A stretch of 64,000 bases of DNA from Trypanosoma brucei (Eukaryota), in the NCBI GenBank assembly GCA_000002445.1, contig CH464491.1, positions 576,001 to 640,000 on the forward strand, in the 5' to 3' direction. Position 1 is the stretch's first letter. Each line of letters begins with the position of its first letter. A model generated the notes under the pieces. The model was given only the letters and a program-made list of their open reading frames with translations, made no database searches and was not told the origin of the DNA. Shown here in pieces: positions 1 through 47,276 of this stretch. The translations under genes and the position numbers were made by a program.

Positions 1-26
1 AAATATACATATAATTGAAGCGCGCG

Positions 27-1322
27 ATGGAGGTGGCTGTGGGGCACGTCCGTCATGTGCCGTGCACGGTACCCGACGATCCTGCGAGCCGTATGAGAGC
101 TATTCGGGAAATCGTTGCTCGGCACTGTGCGCTTTTCATGCAAAAGGGTGGCGATGTAGGCCGATCTCAATGTGCTTCAAATCTGGGCAATAATATTACG
201 AGCGGCACGTCAAATGGATTCGATGCAGATCGTTTGCAGGTGGTGGCCTTTTCTGGCGGAATAACGAATGAGATGTACCATGTATACTGCGAAGGATGGG
301 AGGCCCATTCTGTTGTGATGCGTATCTTTGGAAAGGAGACAGAGCGCGTCATATCCCGTGGGGATGAGCTTTTCTACCAGTCATTATTTATTCCGACTTA
401 TGTTCGCGGCCAGAACTTTTTAGTTTACCAGTACCTTTATCAGTACGAGCCCCTTCCGTTCGTGGAGATGGTAAAAGAGTACGAAAAGATAGCGCGTGGG
501 ATTGCCTTCTTCCACGTCCGGGCGACACTTGAGGCAAGAAGTGATTATAGTGTCACCCCCGTCGGTGGGGTGGTCGGCGCGGGTGGCGCAACCGTAGGCC
601 CAACGAATACCTGTTCGCGCTTCGATTTGGAGGAAAATTATATTGTCCATTCCCTCACCGAGTGGGTGGAGCAGGCCCTTTCGGAGACTGTGCAGGAGAA
701 GGTGGACGCCACAAAACGGGCGACTTATGCATCTGTAGCGCAACAGCTGAAGGAGGAGGCCCAGTGGCTGCTGCCATTGATGCAGAGGCACTCACCTGAG
801 TTGGGCGAGAGTACGTGCCACAATGACCTGCTCAGCGGCAATATCATGAGGCAGAAAAGTGATGGCGCACTGAAGATTATTGACTTCGAGTATGCAAAAC
901 GTAATTACTTTCTGTTTGATATAGCCAATCACTTCAACGAGTACACGGGGCTCGAGTGTGACTACGCCACATATTTCCCCTCTGAGGAGCACATGAAAAA
1001 GTTTGTGACCACTTATATGTGTGCTATGCGGGAGGAGCTCGAAAAACATGCTGAGGAGGCGAAGCGTCGGCAACTAACGGATATTATACCGGGACAGCAG
1101 CATTTCTTCATGTGCGATGTGGGAGGTGTTGAGGGGGATAAGCGGATCCATCGCATGGTTCAGCTTGTCAAACTCCTTACCCTCGCTTCTCACCTAAGTT
1201 GGAGTGTTTGGGCCTTACTTCAGGAGGCGGTGTCGAAGACGGACATGGACTTCCTGCGGTACTCGCAGCTCCGACTGTCGCGGTACCTGGAGACGAGGAA
1301 GGAGTTTAGTGCATCTTCATAA
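27..1322 (+). CDS. choline/ethanolamine kinase
   Basis: 432-aa ORF taken from the first ATG; the ORF-track start at 15 is TTG and an in-frame TAA sits at 12-14. It carries the Brenner phosphotransferase motif CHNDLLSGNIM (nt ~816-848) and the choline-kinase motif IIDFEYAKRNYFLFDIANHFNEYTG (nt ~874-948). Confidence 0.85.
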   Translation: MEVAVGHVRHVPCTVPDDPASRMRAIREIVARHCALFMQKGGDVGRSQCASNLGNNITSGTSNGFDADRLQVVAFSGGITNEMYHVYCEGWEAHSVVMRIFGKETERVISRGDELFYQSLFIPTYVRGQNFLVYQYLYQYEPLPFVEMVKEYEKIARGIAFFHVRATLEARSDYSVTPVGGVVGAGGATVGPTNTCSRFDLEENYIVHSLTEWVEQALSETVQEKVDATKRATYASVAQQLKEEAQWLLPLMQRHSPELGESTCHNDLLSGNIMRQKSDGALKIIDFEYAKRNYFLFDIANHFNEYTGLECDYATYFPSEEHMKKFVTTYMCAMREELEKHAEEAKRRQLTDIIPGQQHFFMCDVGGVEGDKRIHRMVQLVKLLTLASHLSWSVWALLQEAVSKTDMDFLRYSQLRLSRYLETRKEFSASS

Positions 1323-1870
1323 AGGAGGCATAAAGATGTCGGGGTGGTGGTGTAATTGCCTTGCTGAGAGAATCGCACCAACCGTTTGACAGTGATTGCG
1401 GTGTGTCGTATAACGCAACTTGTCGCGGTAGCATTAGCGTAGCAATTATGGTTGCTATCATTACATTTTCTTTTCCCTCTGTTACGTAGCGTCCAAGGCA
1501 CGGCTACACTCCCATATTAAGGATATATATATATATATATATGTTGTGTATGAGGGTGCGTCAAGATGTTGCGGTATTAATTGACGGTACCATCTGAATG
1601 TGTTTTGGGCTGCTTCTAAATTTGTCCTTGTTTACGGCTTCTCTGCCATCTCCCCCCCTCAAGGCGGTTCCCCCTTTCCGTATTTCTCATGTGTTGCTCG
1701 TCCCTTTCCTTCCCTGGAGCTATTGGATACCGGTGGAAGGGTTGTTGTGGGGTTGCAGGTGTGTTTCCGTTGGTCATGCAAGGGAAGGGTGAGGAAAAGA
1801 GAGGATAGGAGAGCGGTGGAAGTGAATTGCAATGGTGCCACGTTTGCACTTTTTTGCGCTCTCTTAACAT

Positions 1871-1912
1871 TTTTTTTGTTGATCCTTAGTTCGTTTCTTT
1901 TTTTTTTTTTCG
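1871..1912 (+). promoter_or_regulatory. polypyrimidine tract (putative trans-splicing/polyadenylation signal)
   Basis: ttttttttgttgatccttagttcgtttctttttttttttttttcg sits between the kinase gene and the next downstream gene. In kinetoplastids such tracts direct SL trans-splicing of the downstream mRNA and polyadenylation of the upstream one. Confidence 0.5.
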
Positions 1913-2475
1913 TGCCTACGTCGTGTTAGTGATCGCCACCGCACACCAACTTAGTGTCCCAAATGATACTTCATGGAGGCGGGACGAGTGCCTCGTTCCC
2001 TCCCGTTGCATTTGTGTGATTTTTTCTTCGTGGTAGTTCGCGGGTGTTGAAAACATGTGGAGTGGGGGTGTATATGGAGAAGCTGGTGGGTAACGCAACT
2101 GTTCTGGTGAAAAATTGGTAAAAAGAAGCAAAAGAAGGTTCTGTTTGGGCAATGGCTGTAGAATGTCAAGGATAAGTAAAACGTGCCGTGTGCTTGTGTG
2201 CATTGTAAAGGTTATCATTAAGTACCGTAAATGAGATGTTGGATGAGGGGATACTTCCTTGGCTATGTAGGGCTTCTCATTTTTCTCATTGTTCATTTTT
2301 ATTGCATCAATGACATGTGAATTTTCAACTTTTTTGTGCGCCTTTTGACAACTATAAGGAAGGGAGGGGTGAAGCTACACACAGGTCGCACACAGCGACG
2401 CGTGCCGACTGCTGGCGCGTTCCGGAGGAACGCAGCGAAGAATCGAATAGGGAAAAAGAAGGATCAACTTTTTAC

Positions 2476-4380
2476 ATGTTTCAAATTGATGTCACCGACG
2501 TTTATTCCGCTCAAACGGAAACAGAGATAGCAAGGCTGTTTGCTTTAGCTGCAAACAGCGATTTCCCCTCCGAGACTCCCACCATCGAAGTGCGTTTACT
2601 GCTGCAAACAGAGAAGGATGGTTCTCAACCGACAGGTGATGTATGGACCCGGCAGGAGCGTGACACGCTGCTACTGTGTTTGGATCGCTCCGTCTCGCGT
2701 GTTTACCCTCCGCTCGACCCACTACAGTACACGCAACCACCACCGGAACTGGAGGTGCGTAACGGGAAACGGGTGGCGCGTATATACGTTACACCAACAG
2801 TCCGTTTGTTTTCCTTTCATTCAACTCCACACTGTGTTGAGGGACGCATGGGTACAGCAAATGGGACTCCTCCTAGTTTACTCACTCCCTTCGCTGAAGG
2901 TGAAGGTGTTAAAGCGAGCGGGGAATTCGAAGACTTTGCCGTTTCTCGGAGTCGGTGGAGGGTTGCTGCGTGGCTGACTGCCCGATTGTTCAATGAGAGT
3001 AGTTGGGTTTCTACCTGTCCCTGTGGTGGACTAAACAATGGGGATGGCACTGTCGCCGTACCTGCTGAGAGGTGTAGTGACGTTATTGATGCTGCAGAGT
3101 GTGACGGGCAAAAGCGGTTGCTTCATGTGGATGTGGCAGGGATGGAGTTCGTTGGGCTCATCACAGCTGTTACGTCACGGTATGCATACGTGGCTGTACC
3201 ACATGAAGAGGAAGGCCAACTGGCTACTAAGTGGGTCCTTGTCAGCCGTGTTAGCGTACCGCCCGCGCTGGAACGCATTGTGGGAAGAGAAACTGTGAAG
3301 AGGCCGAGGGAGGACAGTGAAAGGTCCCGGAGAGAAGAATTTGTGTATGAAAGGGAAGTTATATCTCATGACAACACCCCTTTCAGAGTGCTGCGTGTGG
3401 AGGAGCGTTTGTTGGTCACGCTGCGTGCGCACAAAGTGTATTGCACAAAGCAAAGGCCGGTGTTAGGTCTTCCTAGGGCGGTTTCCGTCTTATTTGAAGA
3501 CGTGGCTGTGGTGAAGAAGGTGGCTGACAGTCTCACTGATGGCGGTGACAGTACCAAAGTTATTCACAAATCATGTTGTAATTCATTTGCGGACGTCCTT
3601 GAAATTGTGAGGGGAAGCTGCAAGCGTTTTCTGCGGGGTTATACCAAATATAAGTTAAACACCAACGGACCTGCGGTCGAGCGCTTATTTAGCGCCCTGA
3701 CCGATACCGTCTCGGTGCAGTCTGTCTGTCACGGTGCGGGGACCCGGCGGCGGCGGCAGCGGCCACCCGTCACTGTCTCGTCTCCACGGGACATCTCTTC
3801 GCTTTATGAGGGAACTTGTGTTGAGTTCAAGGCGAAGGCGAACAAATGGGAGGCCAACTCTATTGAGGATTTCGTTGAGACGGATGTCTTTGGTGATGCG
3901 AGCGCAAGTGCCGGCGGTAATTACCGAAGCACTTCGAGGAAAACGGGCTGCATGAATATGGAGCGTATTCGGCACACCATTGCTGCCATGGCGAGCACGC
4001 TGGGCGGTGTCCTCCTTGTGGGTGTAAGCGACGACGGTAAGGTGTTGGGCCACAGTCCCGATGCGCTGAAGGAACTTCGACTGACTGGCTTCTGCCCAGC
4101 AATGCCGAAGGGCACGGTACAATGTACAACGATGCGAGCTGTGTCGGAAGATGCCCCAGTGACGTTACCAAAGGAATGGTGGAAGAATAAGACTCAGAAT
4201 ATTGGGCAGCGGGTTAATCAGCAGACCAATCTTGTGGTAACAGTGATCACGGTTTCCAGAGGACCAGCCCCAGTCTATACCGTGGCGCGCCACTCTGTGC
4301 CATACATCCGCGGGTTTGCCAGCACCCTCCCACTACATGTCATTTCCGTTACGCGACGTATAACTCCTCTACTGCCATAA
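2476..4380 (+). CDS. hypothetical protein with a C-terminal Schlafen/AlbA_2-like (divergent AAA) domain
   Basis: The longest ORF begins at GTG 2317 and the first in-frame ATG is 2476. A polypyrimidine tract at 2280-2345 lies just upstream. The C-terminal segment MERIRHTIAAMASTLGGVLLVGVSDDGKVLGHSPDALKELRL (from nt 3958) matches the AlbA_2 consensus GGxLxxGVxDdGxvxG. Confidence 0.6.
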   Translation: MFQIDVTDVYSAQTETEIARLFALAANSDFPSETPTIEVRLLLQTEKDGSQPTGDVWTRQERDTLLLCLDRSVSRVYPPLDPLQYTQPPPELEVRNGKRVARIYVTPTVRLFSFHSTPHCVEGRMGTANGTPPSLLTPFAEGEGVKASGEFEDFAVSRSRWRVAAWLTARLFNESSWVSTCPCGGLNNGDGTVAVPAERCSDVIDAAECDGQKRLLHVDVAGMEFVGLITAVTSRYAYVAVPHEEEGQLATKWVLVSRVSVPPALERIVGRETVKRPREDSERSRREEFVYEREVISHDNTPFRVLRVEERLLVTLRAHKVYCTKQRPVLGLPRAVSVLFEDVAVVKKVADSLTDGGDSTKVIHKSCCNSFADVLEIVRGSCKRFLRGYTKYKLNTNGPAVERLFSALTDTVSVQSVCHGAGTRRRRQRPPVTVSSPRDISSLYEGTCVEFKAKANKWEANSIEDFVETDVFGDASASAGGNYRSTSRKTGCMNMERIRHTIAAMASTLGGVLLVGVSDDGKVLGHSPDALKELRLTGFCPAMPKGTVQCTTMRAVSEDAPVTLPKEWWKNKTQNIGQRVNQQTNLVVTVITVSRGPAPVYTVARHSVPYIRGFASTLPLHVISVTRRITPLLP

Positions 4381-4919
4381 CATAAACCTTAAAAAAGCAA
4401 CAACAACAACATATCATTCGTTTACTTTTCGTTATTCACTAATCGACCGCTATGGTGGTACGTTCCGTTTAAATATGGTGTGGTGGCAGCAGACCCGTCC
4501 GAGGCTTTGTTGTGAGAGTGCGGCACTTGGCTCTGTTGAGTTTTTTCTGTTCTGTGATTTCGGTAGTGCTCGCACCGTCTGGTAAGTACGGTACTTTGCG
4601 TTTATTTTTTTAAATTATACTTCCACCACCCCTACTGTTTTTCTTTGAGGGAACAAGGTCATTAAGGATAGCTTGTAGTTGTTGCACCCAGCGGCCTGCA
4701 CACACGAGGGCACACAGGGTTTTTTTAATTTTTCTTCCACCATAACTTTTTTCACAATTTGCGAGTTGGGTGCCCCTTTTGGTTGCCACTTAGGTAACAT
4801 TCTTGTCACCGCATTACACAACATTGGTGTGGAAGTGGCGTGGAAAGATCAGTTTCCATTTCTGTAAATTATTTGTGAACCTCAGAGCGTGTAAGCGTAT
4901 ATTTTCGTTTTTGGGAGTG

Positions 4920-5564
4920 ATGTCATTCATGTCATTGTTTCAGCGTGAGAGGCCGGAGGAAGCAATGCGAAAATACAAACGTGGTCTAGACCGAACAGTG
5001 GTCGAATTAGACAGAGAGAGGAACAAACTCCAGCAGCAGGAAAGCCGTACAACGATCGAGATGAAGAAAATGGCCAAACAAGACCAAATTGATTCGGTCC
5101 GCATTCTTGCCAGGGATTTGGTACGCACACGAAAGTATCAGCAGAAGTTATACCGTATGCGAGCACAGATTCAAGGGGTGGCGCTGCGCATTCAAACTAT
5201 GCAATCCACCGCTCAAATGGCCAGCGCAATGAAGGGTGTGGCCAAGTCTATGGCTAGTATGAACCGGAGTATGAATCTACCGCAGATGCAACGTGTCATG
5301 CAAGAGTTTGAGAAACAAAACGAATTGATGGGGATGAAAGAGGAGATGATGAATGACATGATAGACGATGTGATGGATGATGAGGGTGAGGAGGAGGATG
5401 AAACTGAATTGGAGATTCAGAAGGTTATGGACGAGGCGGGGTTGGAGTTCAAAAACAAGGTTGGCGTGGCAGACAGCGCTCTGCCGAAACAGGGAGCCAA
5501 TGACGTAGGTGAAGATAAAGAACTTGACGCGAGGGTAGCTGCTCTTCGGGCGGCTATGAAGTAA
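4920..5564 (+). CDS. VPS2: ESCRT-III subunit Vps2/CHMP2 (Snf7 family)
   Basis: The ORF-track start at 4803 is TTG and the first ATG is 4920. The N-terminus MSFMSLFQRERPEEAMRKYKRGLDRTVVELDRERNKLQQQE aligns with CHMP2A MDLLFGRRKTPEELLRQNQRALNRAMRELDRERQKLE. Further blocks IKKMAKQ, VRILA(K/R)DLVRTR, MKEEMMND and a C-terminal MIM-like ELDARVAALRAAMK are conserved. Confidence 0.85.
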   Translation: MSFMSLFQRERPEEAMRKYKRGLDRTVVELDRERNKLQQQESRTTIEMKKMAKQDQIDSVRILARDLVRTRKYQQKLYRMRAQIQGVALRIQTMQSTAQMASAMKGVAKSMASMNRSMNLPQMQRVMQEFEKQNELMGMKEEMMNDMIDDVMDDEGEEEDETELEIQKVMDEAGLEFKNKVGVADSALPKQGANDVGEDKELDARVAALRAAMK

Positions 5565-6113
5565 CTCACGGTTTTTCTCACTCGTCTGCTTATGACACTC
5601 CTGCTTTACGTGTACCCTATTCCCCCTTCTTTTTGCCAGTGCTTCCCCTAATTCTCATCAGTTCACTTTCCCTTCTCCTTATTAGCTTTGAACGTTTGCT
5701 GCAGACGATGTTTTTTTTTTGTTTTGCGCTACGGGAAATAGTAACTTGCAACGTTTCTCCTTCACCGCTTTGTTTAAAATGTGTACTGAGAGGGGAATGC
5801 CGGTGGGGTGTCCATAGGTTGTGACTTTGTGCGTTTTTTTTCTTGTTGTAGGAGGAAGTCGAAACTTTACAACTTCACTGTGCAGCATTTTTGACTTTTA
5901 TTGTTTCAGCTCCCGGGAAGAATTAGCTGTCCCATAAACTTCTCATTATGGTGCATACGCGTGCGATTTGGTTGGGGGGGGCAAAGGGAGAATTTGATGC
6001 GTGTGTGTTGGGTTTGGTGACCGACAGTTTTTCATAGGGAGAGCGTTTTACTAAATGGGTTGAGTTTGCTGCAGCATGTTAATTTAAGCACAGCATGCAC
6101 AAATATACATAAG

Positions 6114-6140
6114 TATATATATATATATATATATATATAT
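6114..6140. repeat. (TA)n microsatellite
   Basis: tatatatatatatatatatatatatat in the intergenic region upstream of the 6430 gene. Confidence 0.9.
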
Positions 6141-6429
6141 GCATTTGTCCGGCGTTGCTCCCCTTAATGCTGTTGCTGTACTTTACGTTTTTTCCTTCCC
6201 ACCAGTGTTCCCATAGTCCGCTGTCCAACCCTTCTAGGTGTGGCACCGACAAAAGGTGAGTCAGGAGTACAGGTGCTGCTTGAAGGGAGCGCACCTCACA
6301 GTTTACGAACAAGCAGCGAGAAAAAAAGGGACTCCCAAACATTTAGAGGGCCACCAGCTTTTCCTTATATAGGTTCATCGTTAGTTACGCACAGATACCT
6401 AAAATAGGCATATAAACATCCCTTAAAAA

Positions 6430-8796
6430 ATGACTCGAGAAGAGGAGGTATTGGATCTGGGAAAACGATGGTATGAGCGGCCACTCCCTCTACGGGTATG
6501 CAGCCTGAAGGAAGTGGCCAACGACACCACAACGAAGGAGGAGATGGATGCCATGTTCAGTGAAGCGCGGGATATACTCAACCAAGCTACCAACAGGGGT
6601 CACTCAGACAAGGGGCGGTGGTACAACACACAGTTTATCTCACGCGGTACAACTTCGGACAAAATCGCTTCTGCTGCCGTAAAGTTGAGTGACACGGACT
6701 TTATGTTCTTTCTTGAAGGTTTTAATCTTCTGTTTGACACCGCTCGTACGGATACCCACCACTACGAGGCCGCACTGAAAGCACTTGCAGTCATTTGGAC
6801 GAAGCTAATGCCCCGGCGGCCACTGAAGCGGTTTTTTTCCCAGTTCTTTGCCACGCTGCCAGCGAACCCCGCGGATAGGAAAGTTGTTCTTGTATATTGG
6901 TATCTCGAGGATTACCTGAAGCGCACATATGCGCAGTTTCTTTCGCTCGCAGAGGCGATGCTGAAGGATCGTCTGCAGCAGCGTCGCGAAGCATGGTTAG
7001 ATGTGGTTGGAAAGCTTATATGTAACGTTGCCGAGAGCCGCCACGTAGCGATGGCATTAATGGTGGATAAGTTGGGAGATCCGGCGGCACGTGTTGCGCA
7101 CAATGCCTACCATCACCTGCTTGCCCTTCTGCGTGACTCTTCCATTCATCAGGGGGTACTCTTTGTCGAACTTGAGAAGGTAATTTTTATGAAGAACTGC
7201 CCCAAATCCACAATGAAATATGCAACCAACGTTATGAATCAGTTCGTTTACAATAAGGATGAACGGAAACTTGCCTTAAAAGCTATCCAAACATATCTTT
7301 CCATTTTCCGTCAGCTGGCAATCAGTGGTTCTGTGGATCTCTCCGTGACGACAGCTACCATCGTTGGCCTTCGGCGTGCCTTTCCTTATGCTGGCACAGA
7401 TGTTGCCTCGCTAGAGGAGCACCTTAACGCACTATTTGTCATCGCTAACACCGGGAACTTTACACAGCGTGTCACTACGATGTCCTTACTGCAGCTTGTC
7501 GCACTTGGGAAAAGCGCTACGGAGGAGTTTCGTAACCGTTGGTACAGGGCTCTGTACAAGCTACTGCTCATTTCACCAAAGCAGGTATCTCACTCTGCTC
7601 ACATAACGGGTTTCTTCTCGATGCTGCATAAAGCAGTGCGCTTGGACACTAATGACGACAGAATAGCAGCATTCATTCATCGCCTTCTCCAGCGGGCATT
7701 GTTTTTCCATGAATCAATGATATGCGCCATTCTTTTGTTGGTTGGTGACGTGCTGCAAGCTCACCCTCGTCTCCGCTCAGTAATCTTGGGATCCCGCAGA
7801 CCGCCGGTCGTACCAGCAGAGGAGCGTTATGACGTGAAACATCGCGAACCGCAGTATGCGCGGGCAAAGAACGAGTGCTTGTACACACTGGGTGTCCTGG
7901 CGCGCCATTCGCATCCCTCCGTAGTACAGTTGGCTGTGATGTTACTTTTCGGTGAGGAAATTATTTTTGACAGCCACCCTCTAGATGAGCTCACACTAAT
8001 AAACTTCCTGCAAATGTTTGTGGATGCGAAGGCCCACACCCAGCATGGGATAGACAGCGACGTAGCCGCGGCCGAAGCCGTAGGTAAGGCGGGGTCCTCA
8101 GTGTTCCGTCGCGCAACTCACCGGGCGAACCTCCCCAGCGCATCGGATCCTTTTTTTATCAACTCAAGCGTCCAACAAGTTGATGTGTCGGCGTTATTTC
8201 TTCACCGCTACGCCGTGCAACGTCAACGCTTCATTGATGGCCTTTCCCGGGTGCGGTCCACGTGGGGTGACGCGAGTGGCGAGGCGGACGTGGCACTCCG
8301 CGTGTCGGATGTGGACGCATCACTTTTTGGACCTTCTGGCGTGCTTGGGGATCCAGCAGTATCCAAGAAAAAGAATAAGCGTGCAAAGAAGAAGAAGGAA
8401 CGGTTGAAAGAGAAACTTAAGGAAGGAGCTGTGCTCGACGAGTGTGTGGAGGCCATTGGTAGCGAAGAGGTTGAAGGCGGCGAGGATAATTTTTTCGATA
8501 TGGAAGGTAGTGAAGGCGACTTGGAGTGGGGAAGCGGGGATGAGGGAGTAATGATGGACGATGATGAGGATGGGGATGACGGTAATGAAAGGGACGATGA
8601 TGGCGTGGGTTTGGCGCTTAGTCGTCGGGAAAATGCTGATGTTGATGATGGAGAGGACCTTGCAGAGATGCTGGAGGCTCACCGTAACGTTGCGTCTAAG
8701 AAGCGGAGGCGTGAAGAGGCTTGGTTGGAGCGAGTGACGTCGGCAGCAGGTACTAAAGGACCAAACCGAAGGTCCTTTGTGAGCAGAAGGCGGTAA
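6430..8796 (+). CDS. CBF/Mak21-family nucleolar protein (Noc1/Mak21-like ribosome-biogenesis factor)
   Basis: 788-aa ORF starting at ATG 6430. It has a helical-repeat body with a CBF-domain-like segment RIAAFIHRLLQRALFFHESMICAILLLVGDVLQAHPRL. The C-terminus has a basic KKKNKRAKKKKERLKEKLKEG block followed by a long D/E-rich acidic tail, as in nucleolar pre-60S factors. Confidence 0.5.
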   Translation: MTREEEVLDLGKRWYERPLPLRVCSLKEVANDTTTKEEMDAMFSEARDILNQATNRGHSDKGRWYNTQFISRGTTSDKIASAAVKLSDTDFMFFLEGFNLLFDTARTDTHHYEAALKALAVIWTKLMPRRPLKRFFSQFFATLPANPADRKVVLVYWYLEDYLKRTYAQFLSLAEAMLKDRLQQRREAWLDVVGKLICNVAESRHVAMALMVDKLGDPAARVAHNAYHHLLALLRDSSIHQGVLFVELEKVIFMKNCPKSTMKYATNVMNQFVYNKDERKLALKAIQTYLSIFRQLAISGSVDLSVTTATIVGLRRAFPYAGTDVASLEEHLNALFVIANTGNFTQRVTTMSLLQLVALGKSATEEFRNRWYRALYKLLLISPKQVSHSAHITGFFSMLHKAVRLDTNDDRIAAFIHRLLQRALFFHESMICAILLLVGDVLQAHPRLRSVILGSRRPPVVPAEERYDVKHREPQYARAKNECLYTLGVLARHSHPSVVQLAVMLLFGEEIIFDSHPLDELTLINFLQMFVDAKAHTQHGIDSDVAAAEAVGKAGSSVFRRATHRANLPSASDPFFINSSVQQVDVSALFLHRYAVQRQRFIDGLSRVRSTWGDASGEADVALRVSDVDASLFGPSGVLGDPAVSKKKNKRAKKKKERLKEKLKEGAVLDECVEAIGSEEVEGGEDNFFDMEGSEGDLEWGSGDEGVMMDDDEDGDDGNERDDDGVGLALSRRENADVDDGEDLAEMLEAHRNVASKKRRREEAWLERVTSAAGTKGPNRRSFVSRRR

Positions 8797-9352
8797 ATAC
8801 GAATGCAGAGGGAAAATTGGAGGGGCTGAGGAAGAGGAAGCGGCTGCGAAAGCGCTGCTGCAGTGTCGCCAATGCAGTCGTTTTGGGTGAAGGTGCCTCA
8901 TTCATTAGGCTAACTTTCCTCCACTTTCCTCGTCGCTGTGACTTTTGTGGTTCCGTGGTCTCTCGGGGGTTACAATACTAGTTCGATGCGGGTGGTTGGG
9001 GTTAGGTGTGGTAAAGACTCCATTTTTAGGAGGCATGAAAGGCCAAGTAATTTTAAGAGAAAAAATTCTCACAAGAGAGTAAACATAAAGAGATATTGCC
9101 TAGTTGATCGGTTAAGTTGGTAACGCATGCAAAATTAGTGTTGAATATCTAATTGTTAAAAAATAAGTTACCCTTCACCTACGATTAAGTCTCATTGTCA
9201 TGCGCTGTGGCATATTCGTGTGCACCCGAAAGCGGGTAAATCCACACTTTAATTTTACCCCATGTATCTGTCCTTATCTCACTTTCGCCTCTTATTTTTT
9301 TTTCAATTTTCGGATTTAGTGACCCGCATCCAAACAAACTATATTTTGCTTC

Positions 9353-9416
9353 CGTTTTTTCTTTATTCCCCTCGCGTTTTTTTTTGTATAGCTTGTTTTC
9401 TCGCTTTTTCGTCTCG
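9353..9416 (+). promoter_or_regulatory. polypyrimidine tract upstream of RPN3
   Basis: A T/C-rich run (ccgttttttctttattcccctcgcgtttttttttgtatagcttgttttctcgctttttcgtctc) lies about 40 nt upstream of ATG 9453. Confidence 0.5.
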
Positions 9417-9452
9417 AGTAACGAAGAAACCGAATACGGATCTTCAGGAGTG

Positions 9453-10457
9453 ATGCAAACGACCGGTGAGCTTACCCTGAAGCAGCAACTGCAACAGTCC
9501 GGAAGCAAAGGAAATGACGAGTTGCTTGGACGTCTCATGAGCCTTTACCGAGCTCTTTGCGTTCGCCATGATGAAGTTGGACAGGAGATGTTGCTCAATG
9601 ATATTCTGGCACTGCTGACACTCAACCATCAACACGACCTGGCAGAGCGTGTCATTGCCACATGCGAGATTAGTCTTCCTCATCGCTCTAATAACCAGGC
9701 CGCACGTTACTTTTATTACGTTGGCTTGACCCATGCACTGCGGTTAGGATACGTTGAAGCCGACCAGTTCCTTCAATACGCCCTGCGTAAGGCCCCGGAA
9801 CGGGCATCTGGCTTTCGCGTTGCAGCAACCAAGTTGTCCCTTGTTGTCCAGTTACTCCTTGGTGAGATCCCGCCGCGCTCTGACTTTCTCCAGAAGGATA
9901 TGCGTGAGTGTCTATCTCCCTACCTACAACTCACATCTTGCGTGCGTTTCGGACAGTTAGGTCGTTTCATGTCCATTCTTCAGCAGCATAAGGCCATCTT
10001 TGAGCACGATCGTACGTACTCTCTCATACTGCGCGTGAGGCAGCACGTGATCCGTACAGGTCTCCGCCGTATCTGTCAGGCATACAGCCGCATTAGTATT
10101 CCCGACGTCTGTGCCAAGCTATCTATGGAGAACCCAGATGATGCAGAATACATCATTGCAAAGGCTATTCGAAGCGGTGTAATAGATGCTGTTATTGATC
10201 ACGAGCAACGGCACCTAATCAGCAGCGAAACGGTGGACGTGTACTCTACCTCCGAGCCACTTCTTGCCCTTCAGCGTCGCATACAATTCCTGAATGCCAC
10301 CCACAACGAAGTGAAACGGTCTATGCGGTACTCTGCTGCGGACCCGGATTTGGAGGAGGAGCGACGCAAGGTGGATCGTGAGGAAATGGACAGTCTCCTA
10401 AGGGCCATAGAGGATGAGGAACTTGGTGGTGCTGACTTCGAAGACGGCCTACCGTAA
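9453..10457 (+). CDS. RPN3: 26S proteasome regulatory (lid) subunit RPN3, PCI domain
   Basis: The ORF-track start at 9384 is TTG and the first ATG is 9453 (MQTTGELTLK). The C-terminal PCI/winged-helix region AKAIRSGVIDAVIDHEQRHLISSETVDVYSTSEPLLALQRRIQFLNATHNEVKRSMRY is about 50% identical to human PSMD3 [57 protein letters not shown]. A polypyrimidine tract lies at 9353-9416 upstream. Confidence 0.75.
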   Translation: MQTTGELTLKQQLQQSGSKGNDELLGRLMSLYRALCVRHDEVGQEMLLNDILALLTLNHQHDLAERVIATCEISLPHRSNNQAARYFYYVGLTHALRLGYVEADQFLQYALRKAPERASGFRVAATKLSLVVQLLLGEIPPRSDFLQKDMRECLSPYLQLTSCVRFGQLGRFMSILQQHKAIFEHDRTYSLILRVRQHVIRTGLRRICQAYSRISIPDVCAKLSMENPDDAEYIIAKAIRSGVIDAVIDHEQRHLISSETVDVYSTSEPLLALQRRIQFLNATHNEVKRSMRYSAADPDLEEERRKVDREEMDSLLRAIEDEELGGADFEDGLP

Positions 10458-11226
10458 CCGCTAACAGCGGAGTGGCGCAGGACTGGAGGGAGAAAGAAAA
10501 GGTAAAGGGATGTGTATGGATAGGAGAAAACAAGGAAAGAGAATGAAACGTTGCAAAGGTGGTTTGCCACACAGATCGTTGGGTCGGGGCCTCTAGGTAC
10601 TAGTTGTGAGGTGTAACTCGTCGTGCTAAAGGTAATGTCCATATGAGATCACAAGACTTTTTTTGAGCGCGCAGAAGAAAAACCAGAAGGTGGTTTCAGG
10701 ATTTTCACCAAGAGTTGAGGTGCATCTCCCGCTTAGTCATTACATCGAAGGGAGGGCTGCTGTGCACTGAGCACTGACAAAAGGCTGTCAAACGAATTTG
10801 AGCTGTCACCACTTAGCATGTGTAGGCATACAGTTGAGCAGACATGCGTCAGCGTCAATGCGTTCTTATGTGTAAATTTCCTTTTGTTGCTACCTCCCAT
10901 TAACTACCCACGGTGTACTTTGAGTGACGCAAATCTCAGGAAGTCTGCACTCCTCTCTATTTGTCGATTCTTACCTTTGTTCCTCACACGAATGGGATTC
11001 TCATTTCCCCTGTAGCACGGGATTCAAGTTAAATTGCATTGTTCGACAGATGCAGCGGTACTATTCTCGTTTAATTTTCTTTTCTATTTTTCTTTTATCT
11101 CACCCCTTTCCCTACTCTTTCTGACACACACTTATACATATATATTCACGCAGTCGTTTCGGGATACCACAGACTGTGTGCAAACAAGTCTCCTTATTGG
11201 GGCGAATATAGATAGATCAGTGGGCG

Positions 11227-14200
11227 ATGAGCGACTCCATGGGTGAGGGACAGGACCTTGTTCCTATGACCCTTCCGGTGCCGGAGGTTATGCACGTCTC
11301 TGAACTTGATGTTACGGGACCGCTGCAACCTGGTGATGACTGCGCACAGAAGTCGCTCTCGGGTAATCTTCCGGATAAATGCATGTCTGTTTCATTTGCC
11401 AAAAGCTTGAGCGGCGTAGACCTCAGCATTTTGACACGTTCGGCGGGAAATGCGTCTCACACCTCTATCCGAAGTGGCAGTCGTGCGAGGGGGGGCAATA
11501 CAGAATCTTACGAACTCGCTGCTGTCATGGTTAGATCGTACCCACTCATGACCGTTGAGGGAACGGCGTTTTTAAACACAACACGGCCTCCAAGCTCGCT
11601 GGGGGGAACAGAGCCATCCGTGAGTCTTCGGCAAGATGCAGGCAGTCCCTCTGGGGTTGCTACCGACGATGAACCTCTGGGGGAGAGTTGCGTAAACTTG
11701 GCTGAAAGTGGTGAGCACAGTCGGACGTCCGCCAATGTGATGGCAATCGCCACTAGTCTCAAGCGTGCTTGCATGTGGCAGGTCATAATTACAAACTTTT
11801 TAGCGCACCGCGCGTGGATGGAAGCATTTCGCCGAAACAAACTGAGATCAGTTCTTGAGGTGCACCTTCTTCCCGTGATTCTCCGGAGACGTGGTAGAAT
11901 GAATTTGTCAGGACGGTTTACGCGGAGGGTCTGTGTTCAAAAGCCTGAGCTAGTGAGTAGAGATTCGACTGATTTATTGCAAGGCACGTACCTCTACGAC
12001 ACCGTGCCCATCCTAAAGACCTTGAGAAACGTAAAGTTCTGTGAAGCACTTACGGAGACTGTTTTGAAATACCGCTACAGCTGCGGCCAAGCAATAGCAA
12101 GCAGCGGGAATCCGGAGCAGAACGCTTTATATATTCTCGTCTCCGGCAAGTGCGATGCCATCACCCCAGCATCGGAGACAGGTGGAAAGGTGCGACGCCG
12201 ACGTCTCCAACCAGGTGAAACATTCGGTGGGCTATTTGGTGGTAAAGCGATATTCACAGATGTATATAGAGCCATATCTACCTGTGTGGTGTATGTTATT
12301 ACTAGAGAAAAGTTTGAAGAGTTGTTTTCTCAGTACGCTGACAGCAGTATGAAGGAAACATTCCTTGGTGCGTTACGCGACCACGAGATGGTGCGCCTAA
12401 AAAGGTTACACCCTCTACCCCAGTGCATAGCGCGCGTTCCCATATACCGTAAAAGTGAGCAGCTTGCAGGACAGGTCAACGAATACATTAAGGGGTTCAC
12501 ACCATTGGTGCTTTTACAAGGAGATGTGCTCTTTGAGCAGGGAGATCCTCCCGGCGATGTGTTTTGCCTCATTGAGGGGTATGTCCTGCGCGAGCAACTT
12601 GGTCCAGACATGAAGTACGAAAGCGGCACTCGGCAGGTTCTGGCACCGAACGAGCCGAACAATAACTTCGCACTGAGCACGCGGTTCCTGCTATTGGGAG
12701 AGGAGCCGCACATATTGCCGGGTCCGCTGCGCTACCGCTGCACTGTTGCCAGTCGTGCTGCTCTCTTTTTCAAGATCAATAGCGACAGCTTTGTGAATAT
12801 GCTACTGGATGACGCTAGTCTACTCATTAGGCTTCGGCAAAAGTACAAGGAACAACTGCAGCAGTGGATGCGAATTGCTCCCGAGGCACTCAGGCAAGTT
12901 CCCATGTTGGGGGAGATGCCACGACAAAATCTTAATACCATCATTCACGCTGCGGAACCGCGTGTGCTCGAGCGGTACGTTGCTGTGTGTGAGCCAGCTC
13001 GCGTCATCCGGGAGATTTATGTGTTAACGAAGGGCGATGTACGGGACCCGCGTCAATTTGATCATGTGCCAACGCAACCCCCCTCATTACCTCCCACGGA
13101 AAGCGAGTCTGTAGAGGAAGAGGCCGCGGGGAAGCAGCGAAAGGAAAAGGTCACCAAACGTGTGCCCTCCCCACGTGAAAGAAACTCTAAGGCTCAGAAA
13201 ACGGCCCAGCAACCTGTATCGCCGCTGAAGGAAGGCCGTCCGCGGAAAGGAAACAGGTCTGTTGCATCACTCGTTTGCAAATACACCGACGATAATGCAG
13301 TTCAATGGAGTTTTGAAGAGAATACCGAACTGCTGAAGGCTACAATTTATCCCGATGAGCGGCAGGAAATAACACCGCCACTTCCATTAAACCCGGAGAG
13401 GAATATTATCTGCACCATCGGTGGCGGATGGGAAGGCCTTCTACTGGAGAAGTGGCCTACCGGTTGGGAGACGACGACAACGGTGGAACTCTGGGCCATA
13501 CCGACACTGGCCATAAGGACGGAGTTCAACACTTTCCCCAAGGCGGCTCAAAATTCTATTCTTCGTTGCATTGGTGAAGTGCAAATGCGGGAGCTCGATC
13601 TTCCCACCCCGCCGAAGGTGAAGCTTCCACCAATGAGCATCTACACCCCAATCGAAAAGCGGCTAACGAAACCCGGTTTGAATGTTGACAGGGCCCCCCT
13701 TCGTTCACCGCGTAATGTTGGAGGAAGTGGAGCCTCGCACGACCGCTCCACCGCCGGAACCACAAGCAAAATTGGGCGGCAGCAGGCTGATGCTGCAAAT
13801 TCACAATCCAGTTTTACGACGAGGTCGTCGTCATTTTTCTCCGTTGACATCAGCACCGTGAAGCCTCCGCCTTCTGCGCTGACATCCAACAGGGATCCCA
13901 AAACCATGTCACCTAAACCGGCTGCAGTAGACACAAAGGTCCCCACGGTTCCGAAGACCCGCAAACAATTGGCACAGGTAACCGCGGCTGAGTCGGCGCC
14001 TGTTGAACCTCGCAAATCCAAGGCAGTGCCGGCCTCGTTGCTGTTGTTCCAACGGTTTTCCAAGAAAGTGACTGAGGAACCCCCAAAGATCACACCGGAA
14101 CTGCGAGCCATGTATGCTGGAGAGAAACCACAAAAAGGAATTGTACGTGAGTCGCCTCTCATAGAAGCTGACAAGCGACGAAGTCATAGTTGTCTGCCGA

Positions 14201-14568
14201 CGCTGCCCATAACAGCTTCTGCATGGCCGGTGTTGGCTGGAAGGAGGAAGCGGTGGTTTCCGATGGTACCCACGTTTGCACCCCTTCCGGGAACCCTGGA
14301 CAACGCGAACAACAAGGTGGATCCGCCTCATTTGGTCCCTAACACCTCCCACATGGTTATGCGTGAGAAGGGTTATAGGGATGTGCTGCAGTCACAAGTT
14401 GTTTATTTTACTTCGCTAGCAAATAGCAAAGCCTGTGAGGACCCAACGTACCTCTCGGTCTCCCCATGTACAACTGCAAGGTCCCGTTCCTCTCGTCATG
14501 GTGGGTCCACAGCAGCTCACATTGGTGCGGTACTGCCAACGCCTGGCCGGCATGCATACAGCTCTTAG
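11227..14568 (+). CDS. hypothetical protein with two cyclic-nucleotide-binding-like domains and a long disordered C-terminal half
   Basis: 1113-aa ORF starting at ATG 11227. The first cNMP-like domain is YSCGQAIASSGNPEQNALYILVSGKCDAI...LQPGETFGGLFGGKAIFTDVYRAISTCVVYVITREKFEELF (nt ~12070-12330). The second is LLQGDVLFEQGDPPGDVFCLIEGYVLRE (nt ~12500-12800). The C-terminal ~500 aa are S/T/P/K/R-rich low complexity. Confidence 0.6.
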   Translation: MSDSMGEGQDLVPMTLPVPEVMHVSELDVTGPLQPGDDCAQKSLSGNLPDKCMSVSFAKSLSGVDLSILTRSAGNASHTSIRSGSRARGGNTESYELAAVMVRSYPLMTVEGTAFLNTTRPPSSLGGTEPSVSLRQDAGSPSGVATDDEPLGESCVNLAESGEHSRTSANVMAIATSLKRACMWQVIITNFLAHRAWMEAFRRNKLRSVLEVHLLPVILRRRGRMNLSGRFTRRVCVQKPELVSRDSTDLLQGTYLYDTVPILKTLRNVKFCEALTETVLKYRYSCGQAIASSGNPEQNALYILVSGKCDAITPASETGGKVRRRRLQPGETFGGLFGGKAIFTDVYRAISTCVVYVITREKFEELFSQYADSSMKETFLGALRDHEMVRLKRLHPLPQCIARVPIYRKSEQLAGQVNEYIKGFTPLVLLQGDVLFEQGDPPGDVFCLIEGYVLREQLGPDMKYESGTRQVLAPNEPNNNFALSTRFLLLGEEPHILPGPLRYRCTVASRAALFFKINSDSFVNMLLDDASLLIRLRQKYKEQLQQWMRIAPEALRQVPMLGEMPRQNLNTIIHAAEPRVLERYVAVCEPARVIREIYVLTKGDVRDPRQFDHVPTQPPSLPPTESESVEEEAAGKQRKEKVTKRVPSPRERNSKAQKTAQQPVSPLKEGRPRKGNRSVASLVCKYTDDNAVQWSFEENTELLKATIYPDERQEITPPLPLNPERNIICTIGGGWEGLLLEKWPTGWETTTTVELWAIPTLAIRTEFNTFPKAAQNSILRCIGEVQMRELDLPTPPKVKLPPMSIYTPIEKRLTKPGLNVDRAPLRSPRNVGGSGASHDRSTAGTTSKIGRQQADAANSQSSFTTRSSSFFSVDISTVKPPPSALTSNRDPKTMSPKPAAVDTKVPTVPKTRKQLAQVTAAESAPVEPRKSKAVPASLLLFQRFSKKVTEEPPKITPELRAMYAGEKPQKGIVRESPLIEADKRRSHSCLPTLPITASAWPVLAGRRKRWFPMVPTFAPLPGTLDNANNKVDPPHLVPNTSHMVMREKGYRDVLQSQVVYFTSLANSKACEDPTYLSVSPCTTARSRSSRHGGSTAAHIGAVLPTPGRHAYSS

Positions 14569-15795: not shown

Positions 15796-17283
15796 ATGCA
15801 GGACCTCAACTGGGCCCTGGCGGAAAAGGGCACAAAGGTTGTGGAGGTTTCCCACGAGGCTGCACATGTCGCTAGTTCCGCCACGAATCTTCTTGTGGAC
15901 CGTGAAGAATTACTTTGGATAACGGGAGATGCTCCGCAGCACGTAACGCTGAGGTTAGCGAATCCCCATCCACCACTAAATTATGTTGGATGGCACGTTT
16001 GGCACGATTACGTCACCAACCCCAAAACTGTGGAGGTGGCGACGGGTGAGTCTCCTGATGAAATGGTGGCACAAATCGTGTGTCAGGCAGTTGCCGGGGC
16101 TGGCACGCAGATTTGGAAATTGCCAAGTCCCATCCCCGCCAATCACTTATATGTACGCATGAAGATAGTTGAAACCTTCGGGCCGGGGCCAACTTACTTG
16201 AATAATTTGGTACTCTTCGCTGATGACCCCGGAAGTCGATTCCGCATACTCCGCGGCGAAGAGAGGGATAAATCAATGGCCGATCCGAGAAACTTGTCTT
16301 CGGGTAAAATGAGCGTTCTCCTTCAAGAGTTAGGTCAGGACATACGATCATTACATCCCATCAAGACAGTAGCTTCAAAAAAAAACATGCTACTTTACGT
16401 TCCCAAGGAACCGGATGCCGTCATACGTCCCCAGGGGGAAGAGGATGTTACCTTTCAATCGTCGTCCCAACACGCGAATAATATAACACCGCGGTGCGGA
16501 ACAGATAGCGCGAGGCAGTGCCATCTAGACTCTGGAAGTGGTTTTCAAGCTTCCAGTGACTTTCCAGGTGGTTTCAACGAACGGTTGTGTGCACTAGAGC
16601 AGGCGGTCGCATCTCTAACTCAAACAATGAATCATCAGCGTGAGGATCTTACGATGATTAAACGCCTTCTGCTTCAACAGGCTACAGACAGGCGGCGGGA
16701 GATAGAACGCCAGGGTAACGGCCCAGGCATCGCGTTGCCGCAACATGGCACCCACCCTGTGTCTCACCATCAGGTTTGCGTGGACTTTCCTGAACGAGCC
16801 CTTCGCACATTTGTGGAGGAAGTCGTGAGGCCGAAGCTGCAAAAGCACTCTAGACGGACTGAGACTCAAACTATAGCAAAGCTCGATGAATTCTTAAAGG
16901 ACGTTATTGGGGAAATGACCCAAGTAGTGGATGAACGAGTTCGGTTCCACATTCAGCGGGCCTCGTGCAATAGCAGCGTCAGTACAGGGTTTCATGCCTC
17001 GTGCAGCGGTGGGAGCCTCCAACCGTGCTCACCACACCTGTCGGTCAGCGGCGTGAATGCCAGCAGACCATCAGTCATTGCGGATTCCTCTATTCCCCAA
17101 ACTAACGGGTTCCCACCGGGATCCTTTTCATCTTCGGTTCATGGGTATTCTGCTGCGGCTAGGCATAATTCACCTGCAACCTCTTGTCACGATCCTATCA
17201 GCGTACCCTCTACGGCCGTGCGTGATGTGTCGTTCGAAGTGGATATGACCAGCACAAGGAACACGACACCCAGACCACAGTAA
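15796..17283 (+). CDS. hypothetical protein with an N-terminal galactose-binding-like (F5/8 type C / IFT25-like) domain
   Basis: 495-aa ORF starting at ATG 15796. The N-terminus LAEKGTKVVEVSHEAAHVASSATNLLVDREELLWITGDAPQHVTLRLANPHP...HLYVRMKIVETFGPGPTYLNNLVLFADD follows the pattern of discoidin/APC10-like jelly-roll domains: GxxVVxxSS...NLLDxxxxxxWxTxGxxPQxxxIxL. Confidence 0.5.
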   Translation: MQDLNWALAEKGTKVVEVSHEAAHVASSATNLLVDREELLWITGDAPQHVTLRLANPHPPLNYVGWHVWHDYVTNPKTVEVATGESPDEMVAQIVCQAVAGAGTQIWKLPSPIPANHLYVRMKIVETFGPGPTYLNNLVLFADDPGSRFRILRGEERDKSMADPRNLSSGKMSVLLQELGQDIRSLHPIKTVASKKNMLLYVPKEPDAVIRPQGEEDVTFQSSSQHANNITPRCGTDSARQCHLDSGSGFQASSDFPGGFNERLCALEQAVASLTQTMNHQREDLTMIKRLLLQQATDRRREIERQGNGPGIALPQHGTHPVSHHQVCVDFPERALRTFVEEVVRPKLQKHSRRTETQTIAKLDEFLKDVIGEMTQVVDERVRFHIQRASCNSSVSTGFHASCSGGSLQPCSPHLSVSGVNASRPSVIADSSIPQTNGFPPGSFSSSVHGYSAAARHNSPATSCHDPISVPSTAVRDVSFEVDMTSTRNTTPRPQ

Positions 17284-46890: not shown

Positions 46891-47210
46891 CGTGTATGTG
46901 CGTATGTGCTAGTGTTGGTGTTTGGTGGTGGTGGTGTGGGAGGTGAAGAAATAGATAAGGGAAGGGAAGGGAAAGCGGATGGTGGTGTATTTTGTGTCTC
47001 TTTGCTTGTGTTTTCCACGAGATGAAAATGTTATTAGGCATTAGGACACAATAAAAAGACGCGTGGGACATATTTGCAAAGACAAGTGCGGCACGTTTTG
47101 TGAAATAAATGTTCACTGGCTGCAGTTCCGCTTATGGCTTCCGTAATGATTGTGGTTGGTATTACTTTTCTTTCTGGTTCGTAAAGCTGTTTTGTTTTTA
47201 TTATTATTCC

Positions 47211-47276
47211 CCCCCCTTTTCCTTTTCCTTTTCCCTTCTTCTCCTCCTCCTCCTCCTTCCTCTTCCCTCCTTCTTT
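47211..47276. repeat. polypyrimidine (TCC/CCT)n tract
   Basis: cccccccttttccttttccttttcccttcttctcctcctcctcctccttcctcttccctccttctt. Confidence 0.85.

What the first reader, a model, noticed from the sequence alone, without database searches (positions are those of the whole stretch)
2476..4380. Schlafen/AlbA_2-like nucleic-acid-binding domain in a 634-aa kinetoplastid protein of otherwise unknown function
The C-terminal third (from nt ~3958) reads MERIRHTIAAMASTLGGVLLVGVSDDGKVLGHSPDALKELRL. This fits the core of the AlbA_2 / divergent AAA domain (PF04326 consensus ...GGtLliGVeDdGkvvG...), the fold shared by Schlafen proteins and archaeal/bacterial ATP-dependent DNA-binding proteins. The N-terminal roughly 450 aa have no recognisable family. 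An AlbA_2-only protein in a trypanosomatid is unusual. It could be a nucleic-acid sensor or binder, for example tRNA/rRNA-binding like Schlafens.
Basis: partly seen in the sequence, partly recalled or inferred. Interest (0 to 1): 0.6.

Follow-up and report, generated by a model that had tools for sequence, protein, structure and literature searches.

The report
Nucleolar Schlafen-type nuclease candidate in trypanosomes
This Trypanosoma brucei gene (almost certainly Tb927.11.2100) encodes a nuclear, nucleolus-associated protein found across kinetoplastids whose C-terminal domain is a complete Schlafen/AlbA_2 nuclease lobe with every catalytic residue intact, so it is probably an RNA-cutting enzyme rather than a mere binder, and a concrete candidate for unassigned trypanosome RNA-processing cleavages.

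Summary
Window 2476-4380 (+) encodes a 634-aa protein, and the quoted peptide lies exactly at nt 3958-4083. Pfam PF04326 (SLFN_AlbA_2) is hit above its curated cutoff, all 39 family members tested hit it, and solved Schlafens and AlbA_2 proteins are the top sequence-profile and fold matches.

First, the domain starts earlier, at about residue 437: its first strand, EGTCVEFK, is separated from the rest by a 35-residue disordered insertion. Second, E445, E450 and D519 align with the catalytic E205, E210 and D248 of rat SLFN13, and K452 with K212. They are conserved in 39/39, 39/39, 38/39 and 39/39 sequences, from Prokinetoplastina to Trypanosoma. Third, published data already place the protein in the nucleus: 18-fold enrichment in the nuclear proteome, and membership of TrypTag's 25-protein "fibrillarin-like" nucleolus/Cajal-body class.

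The N-terminal 436 aa match no sequence family. They model confidently as a beta-alpha-beta-alpha-beta-beta domain, an OB-like barrel carrying a conserved KRxR nuclear-localisation-type motif, and a helical hairpin. The Schlafen zinc finger is absent and no Schlafen-type N-lobe was detected, so it is not a Schlafen proper.

Best reading: a kinetoplastid-specific, nucleolar, metal-dependent endoribonuclease. The domain annotation itself is already public.

The parts
2476..4380 (+). Complete CDS, 634 aa plus TAA stop. Inferred to be Tb927.11.2100.
   Evidence: ORF list and translation with coordinates. 98% identical to the T. b. equiperdum 'Divergent AAA domain containing protein'. The upstream neighbour is a choline kinase, and choline kinase is Tb927.11.2090 (PMC9113592). 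Tb927.11.2100 carries the same product name in PMC5519215.
2476..2850 (+). N-terminal domain, residues 1-125, with beta-alpha-beta-alpha-beta-beta order. D63, D70, P78 and D81 are invariant and N27 is at least 90% conserved in the N-domain alignment A4. Motif: RD..LRC.DRA..RVYPP.DP.
3088..3525 (+). Middle OB-like beta-barrel, residues about 205-350: strands 215-232, 236-243 and 252-260, helix 263-270, strands 312-325 and 336-348.
3298..3309 (+). KRPR (residues 275-278), a KRxR nuclear-localisation-type motif in a flexible loop of the middle domain.
   Evidence: K, R and R are each conserved in 27 of 34 ungapped sequences. Mean pLDDT for the surrounding 10-residue blocks (271-290) is 56-63. KRxR is reported as enriched in the T. 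brucei nuclear proteome (PMC5519215).
3586..3702 (+). Helical hairpin linker, residues 371-409.
   Evidence: Helices 371-394 and 398-409, with pLDDT up to 97.
3784..4377 (+). Complete AlbA_2 / Schlafen C-lobe-type domain, residues 437-634.
3808..3831 (+). EGTCVEFK, first strand of the lobe, carrying the predicted catalytic E445 and E450 and the active-site K452.
   Evidence: Aligns to ESASIEFK of rat SLFN13 (E205, E210, K212), ESTHVEFK of SLFN14 and ESQLVEFK of SLFN11. The chain offset was verified against PMC5862951. All three residues are 39/39 invariant. The segment aligns to Pfam profile position 1 onwards once the insertion is removed.
3847..3951 (+). 35-residue disordered insertion (residues 458-492) that splits the AlbA_2 domain.
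   Evidence: pLDDT below 50 for 458-492. Length varies across the family. Deleting it raises the Pfam score from 32.2 to 40.0 bits and extends the match to profile position 1.
3958..4083 (+).
   Evidence: G510, G511, G516 and G521 are 39/39; R497 is 38/39; R499 is 37/39.
4021..4038 (+). GVSDDG (residues 516-521). D519 is the predicted third catalytic carboxylate.
   Evidence: D519 aligns to the second D of GVDD in 5yd0, which is D248 of rat SLFN13. Conserved in 38/39 sequences, with one Asn.
4087..4377 (+). Family-specific C-terminal part of the lobe: GFCPAM (P541 39/39), P..WWK (W568 and W569 37/39), VVTVI.V..G.APFY, P..RG.AST (R612 38/39, S616 39/39, T617 38/39), and the terminal helix with R628.
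   Evidence: Conservation. pLDDT about 90-96 apart from the loop 574-581.

Best explanation
The gene encodes a kinetoplastid-specific nuclear protein that concentrates in the nucleolus and Cajal-body-like compartment marked by fibrillarin. Its C-terminal 200 residues form a complete AlbA_2 / Schlafen C-lobe-type nuclease domain. I propose it is an active, divalent-metal-dependent endonuclease, most likely an endoribonuclease acting on structured nucleolar RNA such as pre-rRNA, snoRNA precursors or tRNA. In this model the carboxylates E445, E450 and D519 hold the metal and water that attack the scissile phosphate, assisted by K452, as in SLFN13, SLFN11, SLFN12 and SLFN14. The substrate would be held not by a Schlafen N-lobe, bridging domain and zinc finger but by lineage-specific modules packed against the lobe: an N-terminal beta-alpha-beta-alpha-beta-beta domain and an OB-like barrel. 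A conserved KRxR motif in a loop of the barrel would provide nuclear import.

Shown: the domain identity, the alignment and conservation of the catalytic residues, a compact multi-domain model, conservation across the class with synteny, nuclear enrichment, and the fibrillarin-like localisation.

Inferred: catalytic activity, RNA as the substrate, the OB assignment, and the NLS function.
For: 1. Domain identity. PF04326 is hit above the gathering score, in 39/39 family members. With the insertion deleted the match covers profile positions 1-109 at 40 bits, E=6.5e-10.

2. Active site. The family profile aligns E-x4-E-x-K and GV.D with the same motifs in rat SLFN13, SLFN14, SLFN11 and SLFN12. 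In SLFN13, E205, E210 and D248 are the residues whose mutation abolishes tRNA/rRNA cleavage (PMC5862951). The Lys is present in the active SLFN13 and SLFN12 and missing in the inactive SLFN5 and mSlfn2 (PMC8789055). Conservation in this family is E445 39/39, E450 39/39, K452 39/39 and D519 38/39, from Apiculatamorpha (Prokinetoplastina) to Trypanosoma. Replacing these four residues with Ala costs 12.6 bits against the Pfam model.

3. Precedent. The other characterised eukaryotic AlbA_2 enzyme, SAMD9, is also a tRNase that depends on acidic residues (E184, E196, E218, D241) and on K198 and K214 (PMC12331169).

5. Location. Nuclear enrichment score is 4.19 log2, p=2.7e-6, with 21 peptides (PMC5519215). 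The protein is one of 25 'Fibrillarin-like' proteins in TrypTag, alongside fibrillarin2 and NOP56 (PMC9981465; PMC8748868). KRxR is conserved and is the motif reported as enriched in the trypanosome nuclear proteome.

6. Purifying selection. The gene is syntenic in T. theileri and Angomonas, and named family members exist in Leishmania, Leptomonas and Phytomonas.
Against: No biochemical data exist for this protein or any family member in the literature I could search. An intact triad does not guarantee activity: human SLFN5 has E191, E196 and D233 yet did not cleave tRNA in PMC8789055. The Schlafen RNA clamp is not detectable here (no N-lobe found, zinc finger absent), so how the substrate is engaged is unknown. 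I could not inspect the model coordinates, so the geometry of the triad was not verified. Nothing here shows that RNA rather than DNA is the substrate: the middle domain resembles DNA-ligase OB domains, and the SAMD9 AlbA_2 domain has been crystallised on DNA (7ksp). The protein was not found in the held supplements of a snoRNA-associated proteome, although those files are small.
Confidence: 0.55

Rival explanations
1. It is a non-catalytic nucleic-acid-binding or scaffold protein of nucleolar RNPs, which is the first reader's 'binder/sensor' reading. The AlbA_2 lobe and OB barrel bind RNA or DNA, and the conserved acidic residues serve structure or regulation rather than catalysis.
For: SLFN5 keeps the triad yet lacked tRNase activity while binding tRNA and DNA (PMC8789055). 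Many bacterial AlbA_2 proteins have no known enzymatic function (3lmm is 'uncharacterized'). In SLFN13, E210 also makes a salt bridge to the bridging domain, so it has a structural role too.
Against: In SLFN5 orthologues the triad 'exhibits little conservation' and the Lys is absent. Here E, E and K are 39/39 and D is 38/39 across the whole class. That pattern is expected for a catalytic site and is stricter than for most structural positions in the same lobe.
Confidence: 0.25
2. It is a DNA-directed enzyme or factor, for example a nuclease or end-binding factor acting on rDNA or other nuclear DNA in repair, replication stress or recombination, rather than an RNA-processing enzyme.
Against: The sub-nuclear pattern is fibrillarin-like, meaning nucleolus plus a Cajal-like focus. 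TrypTag lists the telomere-like, Pol II-like and patchy patterns as separate classes, and this protein is not in them. It is absent from the held R-loop interactome supplements. The ligase resemblance is probably just the OB fold: no invariant lysine or nucleotidyl-transferase motif appears among the conserved residues. Every AlbA_2 nuclease whose substrate is described in the papers read here (SLFN13, SLFN11, SLFN12, SAMD9) cleaves RNA.
Confidence: 0.13
3. It is a chance or over-extended motif match, with no real AlbA_2 domain.
For: The single-sequence Pfam score is only 2.8 bits above the cutoff. A single-sequence PDB search of the full protein finds nothing.
Confidence: 0.01

Closest known systems
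Schlafen nuclease core: C-lobe of SLFN13, SLFN11, SLFN12 and SLFN14 (PDB 5yd0, 7zel, 7lrd, 9nyy)
   Same: The same AlbA_2 lobe fold and sequence family (PF04326). The same E-x4-E-x-K strand and GV.D turn carrying the catalytic carboxylate triad and lysine. These are the best sequence-profile and Foldseek matches.
   Different: No conserved His/Cys, so the HCCC/CCCH zinc finger is absent. No detectable N-lobe or pseudo-dimeric horseshoe. No SWAVDL linker or helicase domain, because the protein ends with the lobe. A 35-residue insertion follows the first strand. The lobe sits at the C-terminus behind an OB-like barrel. The protein is constitutive and nucleolar in a protist. From my own knowledge, Schlafens are interferon-induced vertebrate proteins.
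SAMD9/SAMD9L N-terminal tRNase (AlbA_2) domain (PDB 7ksp, 9o0d)
   Different: SAMD9 is a protein of more than 1,500 aa with a SAM-AlbA_2-SIR2-P-loop-TPR-OB architecture like that of NLR innate-immune receptors, and it is a cytoplasmic antiviral effector. Here there are only 634 aa, the OB-like module precedes the lobe, and none of the other domains is present.
Bacterial and archaeal AlbA_2 ('divergent AAA', RecG-like or transcription-regulator) proteins, e.g. DIP2311 (3lmm) and 2kyy
   Different: From my own knowledge, the prokaryotic proteins pair the N-terminal lobe with HATPase-like and HTH modules. They are functionally uncharacterised. The kinetoplastid N-domain and OB-like architecture was not found outside this family: only 51 cluster representatives among 1.84 billion.
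Alba / IF3-C-like beta-alpha-beta-alpha-beta-beta RNA-binding domains (SpoVS, IF3 C-domain)
   Different: The scores are modest, and methyltransferase fragments score equally well or better. There is no sequence similarity. This is a topological resemblance only.

Membership tests
Pfam PF04326 SLFN_AlbA_2 domain family | Match to the family HMM at or above the curated gathering score (25.3 bits) | tested here: met
   28.1 bits for the full protein, 32.2 bits for the isolated domain, and 40.0 bits over profile positions 1-109 with the insertion deleted. 39/39 homologues match at E<=0.1, best 5.1e-11.
Pfam PF04326 SLFN_AlbA_2 domain family | AlbA_2 lobe fold | tested here: met
   [not shown]
Catalytically active Schlafen-type nucleases (SLFN13/11/12/14) | Carboxylate triad equivalent to rat SLFN13 E205, E210 and D248 | tested here: met
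   E445, E450 and D519 align to these residues. The numbering was verified with PMC5862951. Conservation is 39/39, 39/39 and 38/39.
Catalytically active Schlafen-type nucleases (SLFN13/11/12/14) | Active-site lysine (K212 in rat SLFN13, K207 in SLFN12), absent in the inactive SLFN5 and mSlfn2 | tested here: met
   K452 aligns with the K of EFK and is 39/39 conserved. The criterion comes from PMC8789055.
Catalytically active Schlafen-type nucleases (SLFN13/11/12/14) | Metal-dependent endonucleolytic cleavage of tRNA or rRNA | not testable with these tools
   This needs recombinant protein and nuclease assays. No published assay was found.
Schlafen protein family (Slfn core domain) | Zinc finger (His plus three Cys) conserved throughout the family | tested here: not met
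   No Cys or His column is conserved across the 39-sequence alignment. The best are H319 at 30/37, C382 at 27/37 and C540 at 26/39, and there is no set of four. The criterion comes from PMC8789055.
Schlafen protein family (Slfn core domain) | Pseudo-dimeric horseshoe of N-lobe plus C-lobe joined by bridging domains | tested here: inconclusive
   [not shown]
Schlafen protein family (groups II and III) | SWAVDL linker domain, with or without a C-terminal helicase domain | tested here: not met
   The protein ends 0 residues after the AlbA_2 lobe. No other Pfam domain is found in any of the 39 members or in the longer relatives.
SAMD9/9L family | SAM, SIR2-like, P-loop NTPase and TPR modules around the AlbA_2 tRNase | tested here: not met
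   Only PF04326 is detected. The architecture criterion comes from PMC12331169.
ATP-dependent DNA ligase / capping-enzyme nucleotidyl-transferase superfamily | Nucleotidyl-transferase domain with a catalytic lysine (KxDG motif I) preceding the OB domain | tested here: not met
   [not shown]

The most novel reading that the evidence does not exclude
This protein is the missing lineage-specific endonuclease for a kinetoplastid-only nuclear RNA-processing step. [quoted passage not shown] Alternatives are release of snoRNAs from their precursors (trypanosome snoRNAs are, from my own knowledge, made from polycistronic precursors) and stress-induced tRNA cleavage. The machinery for the rRNA cleavages is described as little known and likely trypanosome-specific (PMC6411936). 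T. brucei lacks angiogenin and Rny1, and the Dicer-like enzymes have been excluded as the source of tRNA halves (PMC6328589). A nuclease restricted to kinetoplastids that localises like fibrillarin fits the rRNA and snoRNA options best.
Probability: 0.2. Interest if true: 0.8.

Novelty: new variant of a known kind. Interest (0 to 1): 0.55.

Why it matters
Schlafen-type AlbA_2 nucleases are known mainly as vertebrate interferon-induced tRNA/rRNA-cleaving effectors. A constitutively expressed, nucleolar version with a different substrate-holding architecture, conserved across Kinetoplastea, would show this catalytic lobe used for housekeeping RNA metabolism in a deep-branching eukaryote.

In practice it gives trypanosome RNA biologists a named gene (Tb927.11.2100) and four specific point mutations (E445A, E450A, K452A, D519A). 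With these they can test two unassigned activities: the trypanosome-specific LSU rRNA cleavages, and the tRNA-half nuclease. Within the PDB, the N-terminal and middle domains gave only generic fold matches and no sequence match, so an essential enzyme of this kind might also be a selective drug target. The AlphaFold database could not be searched. The domain annotation and the localisation were already public. What is new here is the recognition of an intact, split catalytic domain and its link to the localisation data.

Tried and rejected

2. A ligase or capping-enzyme-like nucleotidyl-transferase. Rejected for lack of any motif or invariant lysine. The resemblance is attributed to the OB fold.

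3. Domain fusions in longer relatives as functional hints. None were found. P0048 is a low-complexity false positive.

4. Anti-phage defence or NCBIfam families. No hits.

5. A second database search with a 23-sequence alignment to get names for distant homologues. It returned only Trypanosoma because of the candidate cap. Names were recovered through cluster look-ups instead.

6. AFDB fold search. The library was unavailable.

7. Literature. No paper mentions Tb927.11.2100 in its main text. There was nothing for 'divergent AAA domain' or 'Schlafen' in trypanosomes. The protein is not in the held R-loop interactome or snoRNA-proteome supplements. The Alsford 2011 RNAi fitness screen is not held.

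8. A mitochondrial role. Considered and rejected, because the N-terminus is acidic and forms a structured strand and the protein is nuclear-enriched.
Full report
OBSERVATION. The + strand ORF 2317..4380 has its first ATG at 2476, giving 634 aa and a TAA stop. Orthologues begin at the same methionine. The window is Trypanosoma brucei: the protein is 98% identical to a T. b. equiperdum protein. The upstream ORF is a choline/ethanolamine kinase. [quoted passage not shown] I therefore take the gene to be Tb927.11.2100. This rests on position and product name, not on sequence comparison.

IS THE DOMAIN REAL? Yes.
- Pfam PF04326 (SLFN_AlbA_2) scores 28.1 bits against a curated cutoff of 25.3, E=3.3e-6, over residues 491-612.
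- A profile search of 1.84 billion cluster representatives found only 51 relatives.
- I aligned 39 of them (A3), and all 39 hit PF04326, best E=5.1e-11, with no other family.
- The A3 profile hits solved Schlafens by sequence: rat SLFN13 (5yd0) at 4.2e-8, SLFN14 at 1.2e-6, SLFN11 at 1.2e-5, plus SLFN12 and SLFN5. It also hits the bacterial AlbA_2 protein 3lmm at 4e-6.
- AlphaFold2 with 9 sequences was poor (pLDDT 40). With the 39-sequence alignment it gave pLDDT 80.8 and pTM 0.84.
- The Foldseek top 23 are all Schlafen or AlbA_2 structures.

The Pfam alignment starts at profile position 19. Fifty residues upstream lies EGTCVEFK (residues 445-452), followed by a stretch with pLDDT below 50 (residues 458-492). 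In relatives with shorter spacers, Pfam aligns from profile position 1 (P0038, P0024, P0027). I tested this directly. The native C-domain scores 32.2 bits over profile 19-109. Deleting residues 458-492 gives 40.0 bits (E=6.5e-10) over profile 1-109. Adding E445A, E450A, K452A and D519A drops the score to 27.4 bits and loses the first strand. So the AlbA_2 lobe spans about residues 437-634 and is split by an insertion.

In the PDB profile alignment, E445-x4-E450-F-K452 aligns with ESASIEFK of 5yd0, ESTHVEFK of SLFN14 and ESQLVEFK of SLFN11, and G516-V-S-D519 aligns with GVDD. I verified the 13-residue chain offset of 5yd0 from two residue pairs named in the SLFN13 paper: E47/N54 and E229/N236 (PMC5862951). 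That makes the equivalences E445=E205, E450=E210, K452=K212 and D519=D248. In that paper E205A and E210A are 'absolutely inactive', and D248 completes a tripod of three carboxylates like the metal-binding sites of RNase E and RNase III. The lysine is present in the active SLFN13 and SLFN12 and absent from SLFN5 and mSlfn2, which lacked activity (PMC8789055). Across the 39 sequences, E445, E450 and K452 are 39/39 and D519 is 38/39 with one Asn. SAMD9, the other characterised eukaryotic AlbA_2 enzyme, is a tRNase that depends on E184, E196, E218 and D241 and on K198 and K214 (PMC12331169).

THE REST OF THE PROTEIN. No sequence method assigns residues 1-436 to a family. The region is nevertheless conserved and models confidently.
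- Residues 2-104 form a beta-alpha-beta-alpha-beta-beta unit. In the N-domain alignment, D63, D70, P78 and D81 are invariant and N27 is near-invariant.
- Residues about 205-350 have the beta1-beta2-beta3-alpha-beta4-beta5 order of an OB fold.
- Foldseek gives weak hits to OB proteins and capping enzyme.
- There is no nucleotidyl-transferase motif or invariant lysine, so I read this region as an OB-like nucleic-acid-binding barrel. That is an inference.
- A helical hairpin (residues 371-409) links the barrel to the nuclease lobe.
- The pTM of 0.84 indicates the domains pack as one unit.

DISTRIBUTION. Named family members come from Trypanosoma species, Leishmania (Viannia) species, Leptomonas and Phytomonas, Angomonas and the prokinetoplastid Apiculatamorpha spiralis. 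The family therefore spans Kinetoplastea. The gene order Vps16, choline kinase, this gene, Snf7, CBF/Mak21, Rpn3, cNMP-binding protein is kept in T. theileri and Angomonas and matches the window.

EXPERIMENTAL DATA ALREADY PUBLISHED. In the procyclic nuclear proteome, Tb927.11.2100 has 21 peptides and was measured in all four nuclear and all four whole-cell samples. Its nuclear enrichment score is 4.19 log2 with p=2.7e-6, against a cutoff of 0.7. The same paper reports KRxR as an NLS-like motif enriched in nuclear proteins. The protein has K275-R-P-R278 in a flexible loop, and each of the three basic positions is conserved in 27 of 34 ungapped sequences. In the TrypTag source data it is one of 25 'Fibrillarin-like' proteins. 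The authors describe that pattern as nucleolus-associated points and potential Cajal bodies. The list includes fibrillarin2 (Tb927.10.14750) and NOP56 (Tb927.8.3750), which mark both the nucleolus and the Cajal body (PMC8748868).

MECHANISM PROPOSED. A nucleolar or Cajal-body-associated, metal-dependent endonuclease that uses the E445/E450/D519 triad and K452, most likely acting on structured RNA, with the N-domain and OB-like barrel providing substrate binding in place of the Schlafen clamp. Confidence is 0.55. The rivals are a non-catalytic binder (0.25), a DNA-directed function (0.13) and an artefact (0.01).

CONTEXT. [quoted passage not shown] T. brucei has no angiogenin and no Rny1, and its Dicer-like enzymes do not make tRNA halves (PMC6328589). 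A kinetoplastid-restricted, fibrillarin-co-localising Schlafen-type nuclease is a testable candidate for such steps. I give that reading a probability of 0.2.

NOVELTY AND SCORE. The AlbA_2 annotation and the localisation are already public. Three things are new here: recognising the complete, insertion-split catalytic domain with invariant active-site residues; describing the lineage-specific architecture; and connecting both to the localisation data. I rate it a new variant of a known kind, with interest 0.55.

Noticed in passing
L001:9500-10400 (Angomonas deanei LR877149.1): The Angomonas orthologue's gene model (P0022, 578 aa) stops just after the WWK motif. The rest of the lobe (VVTVITVGKGLAPFY...YVRACASTL...) is intact in the next reading frame. 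The short model therefore comes from a frameshift in the record or the assembly, not from loss of the domain. A Snf7-like ORF follows it.
   Followed up: partly
window 2476-2850 (residues 59-81): The N-terminal domain has its own invariant acidic residues in the motif RD..LRC.DRA..RVYPP.DP: D63, D70 and D81, plus P78. This conservation is as strict as in the nuclease site. No explanation was found. It could be an interface with the lobe, or a second functional site.
   Followed up: partly
[not shown]
   Followed up: partly
window 15-14568: The conserved gene block is choline/ethanolamine kinase (Tb927.11.2090), this gene, Snf7-family ESCRT-III protein (4917-5564), CBF/Mak21-family nucleolar protein (6430-8796), proteasome Rpn3 (9384-10457), and a 1113-aa cNMP-binding-domain protein (11227-14568). 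The same order is kept in T. theileri and Angomonas.
   Followed up: partly
window 15796-17283: A 495-aa ORF with no Pfam family at E<=0.001.
   Followed up: no
window 38001-40000 and 46001-48000: Two 2-kb bins have clearly lower G+C (0.39 and 0.38, against about 0.48 elsewhere). The second also has a strong negative AT skew (-0.27).
   Followed up: no
P0005, P0006, P0012 (public records): Several orthologues (T. conorhini, T. vivax, T. grayi) carry the organism name 'Trypanosoma vivax' as their product name in NCBI and UniRef. This looks like an annotation-transfer artefact.
   Followed up: no
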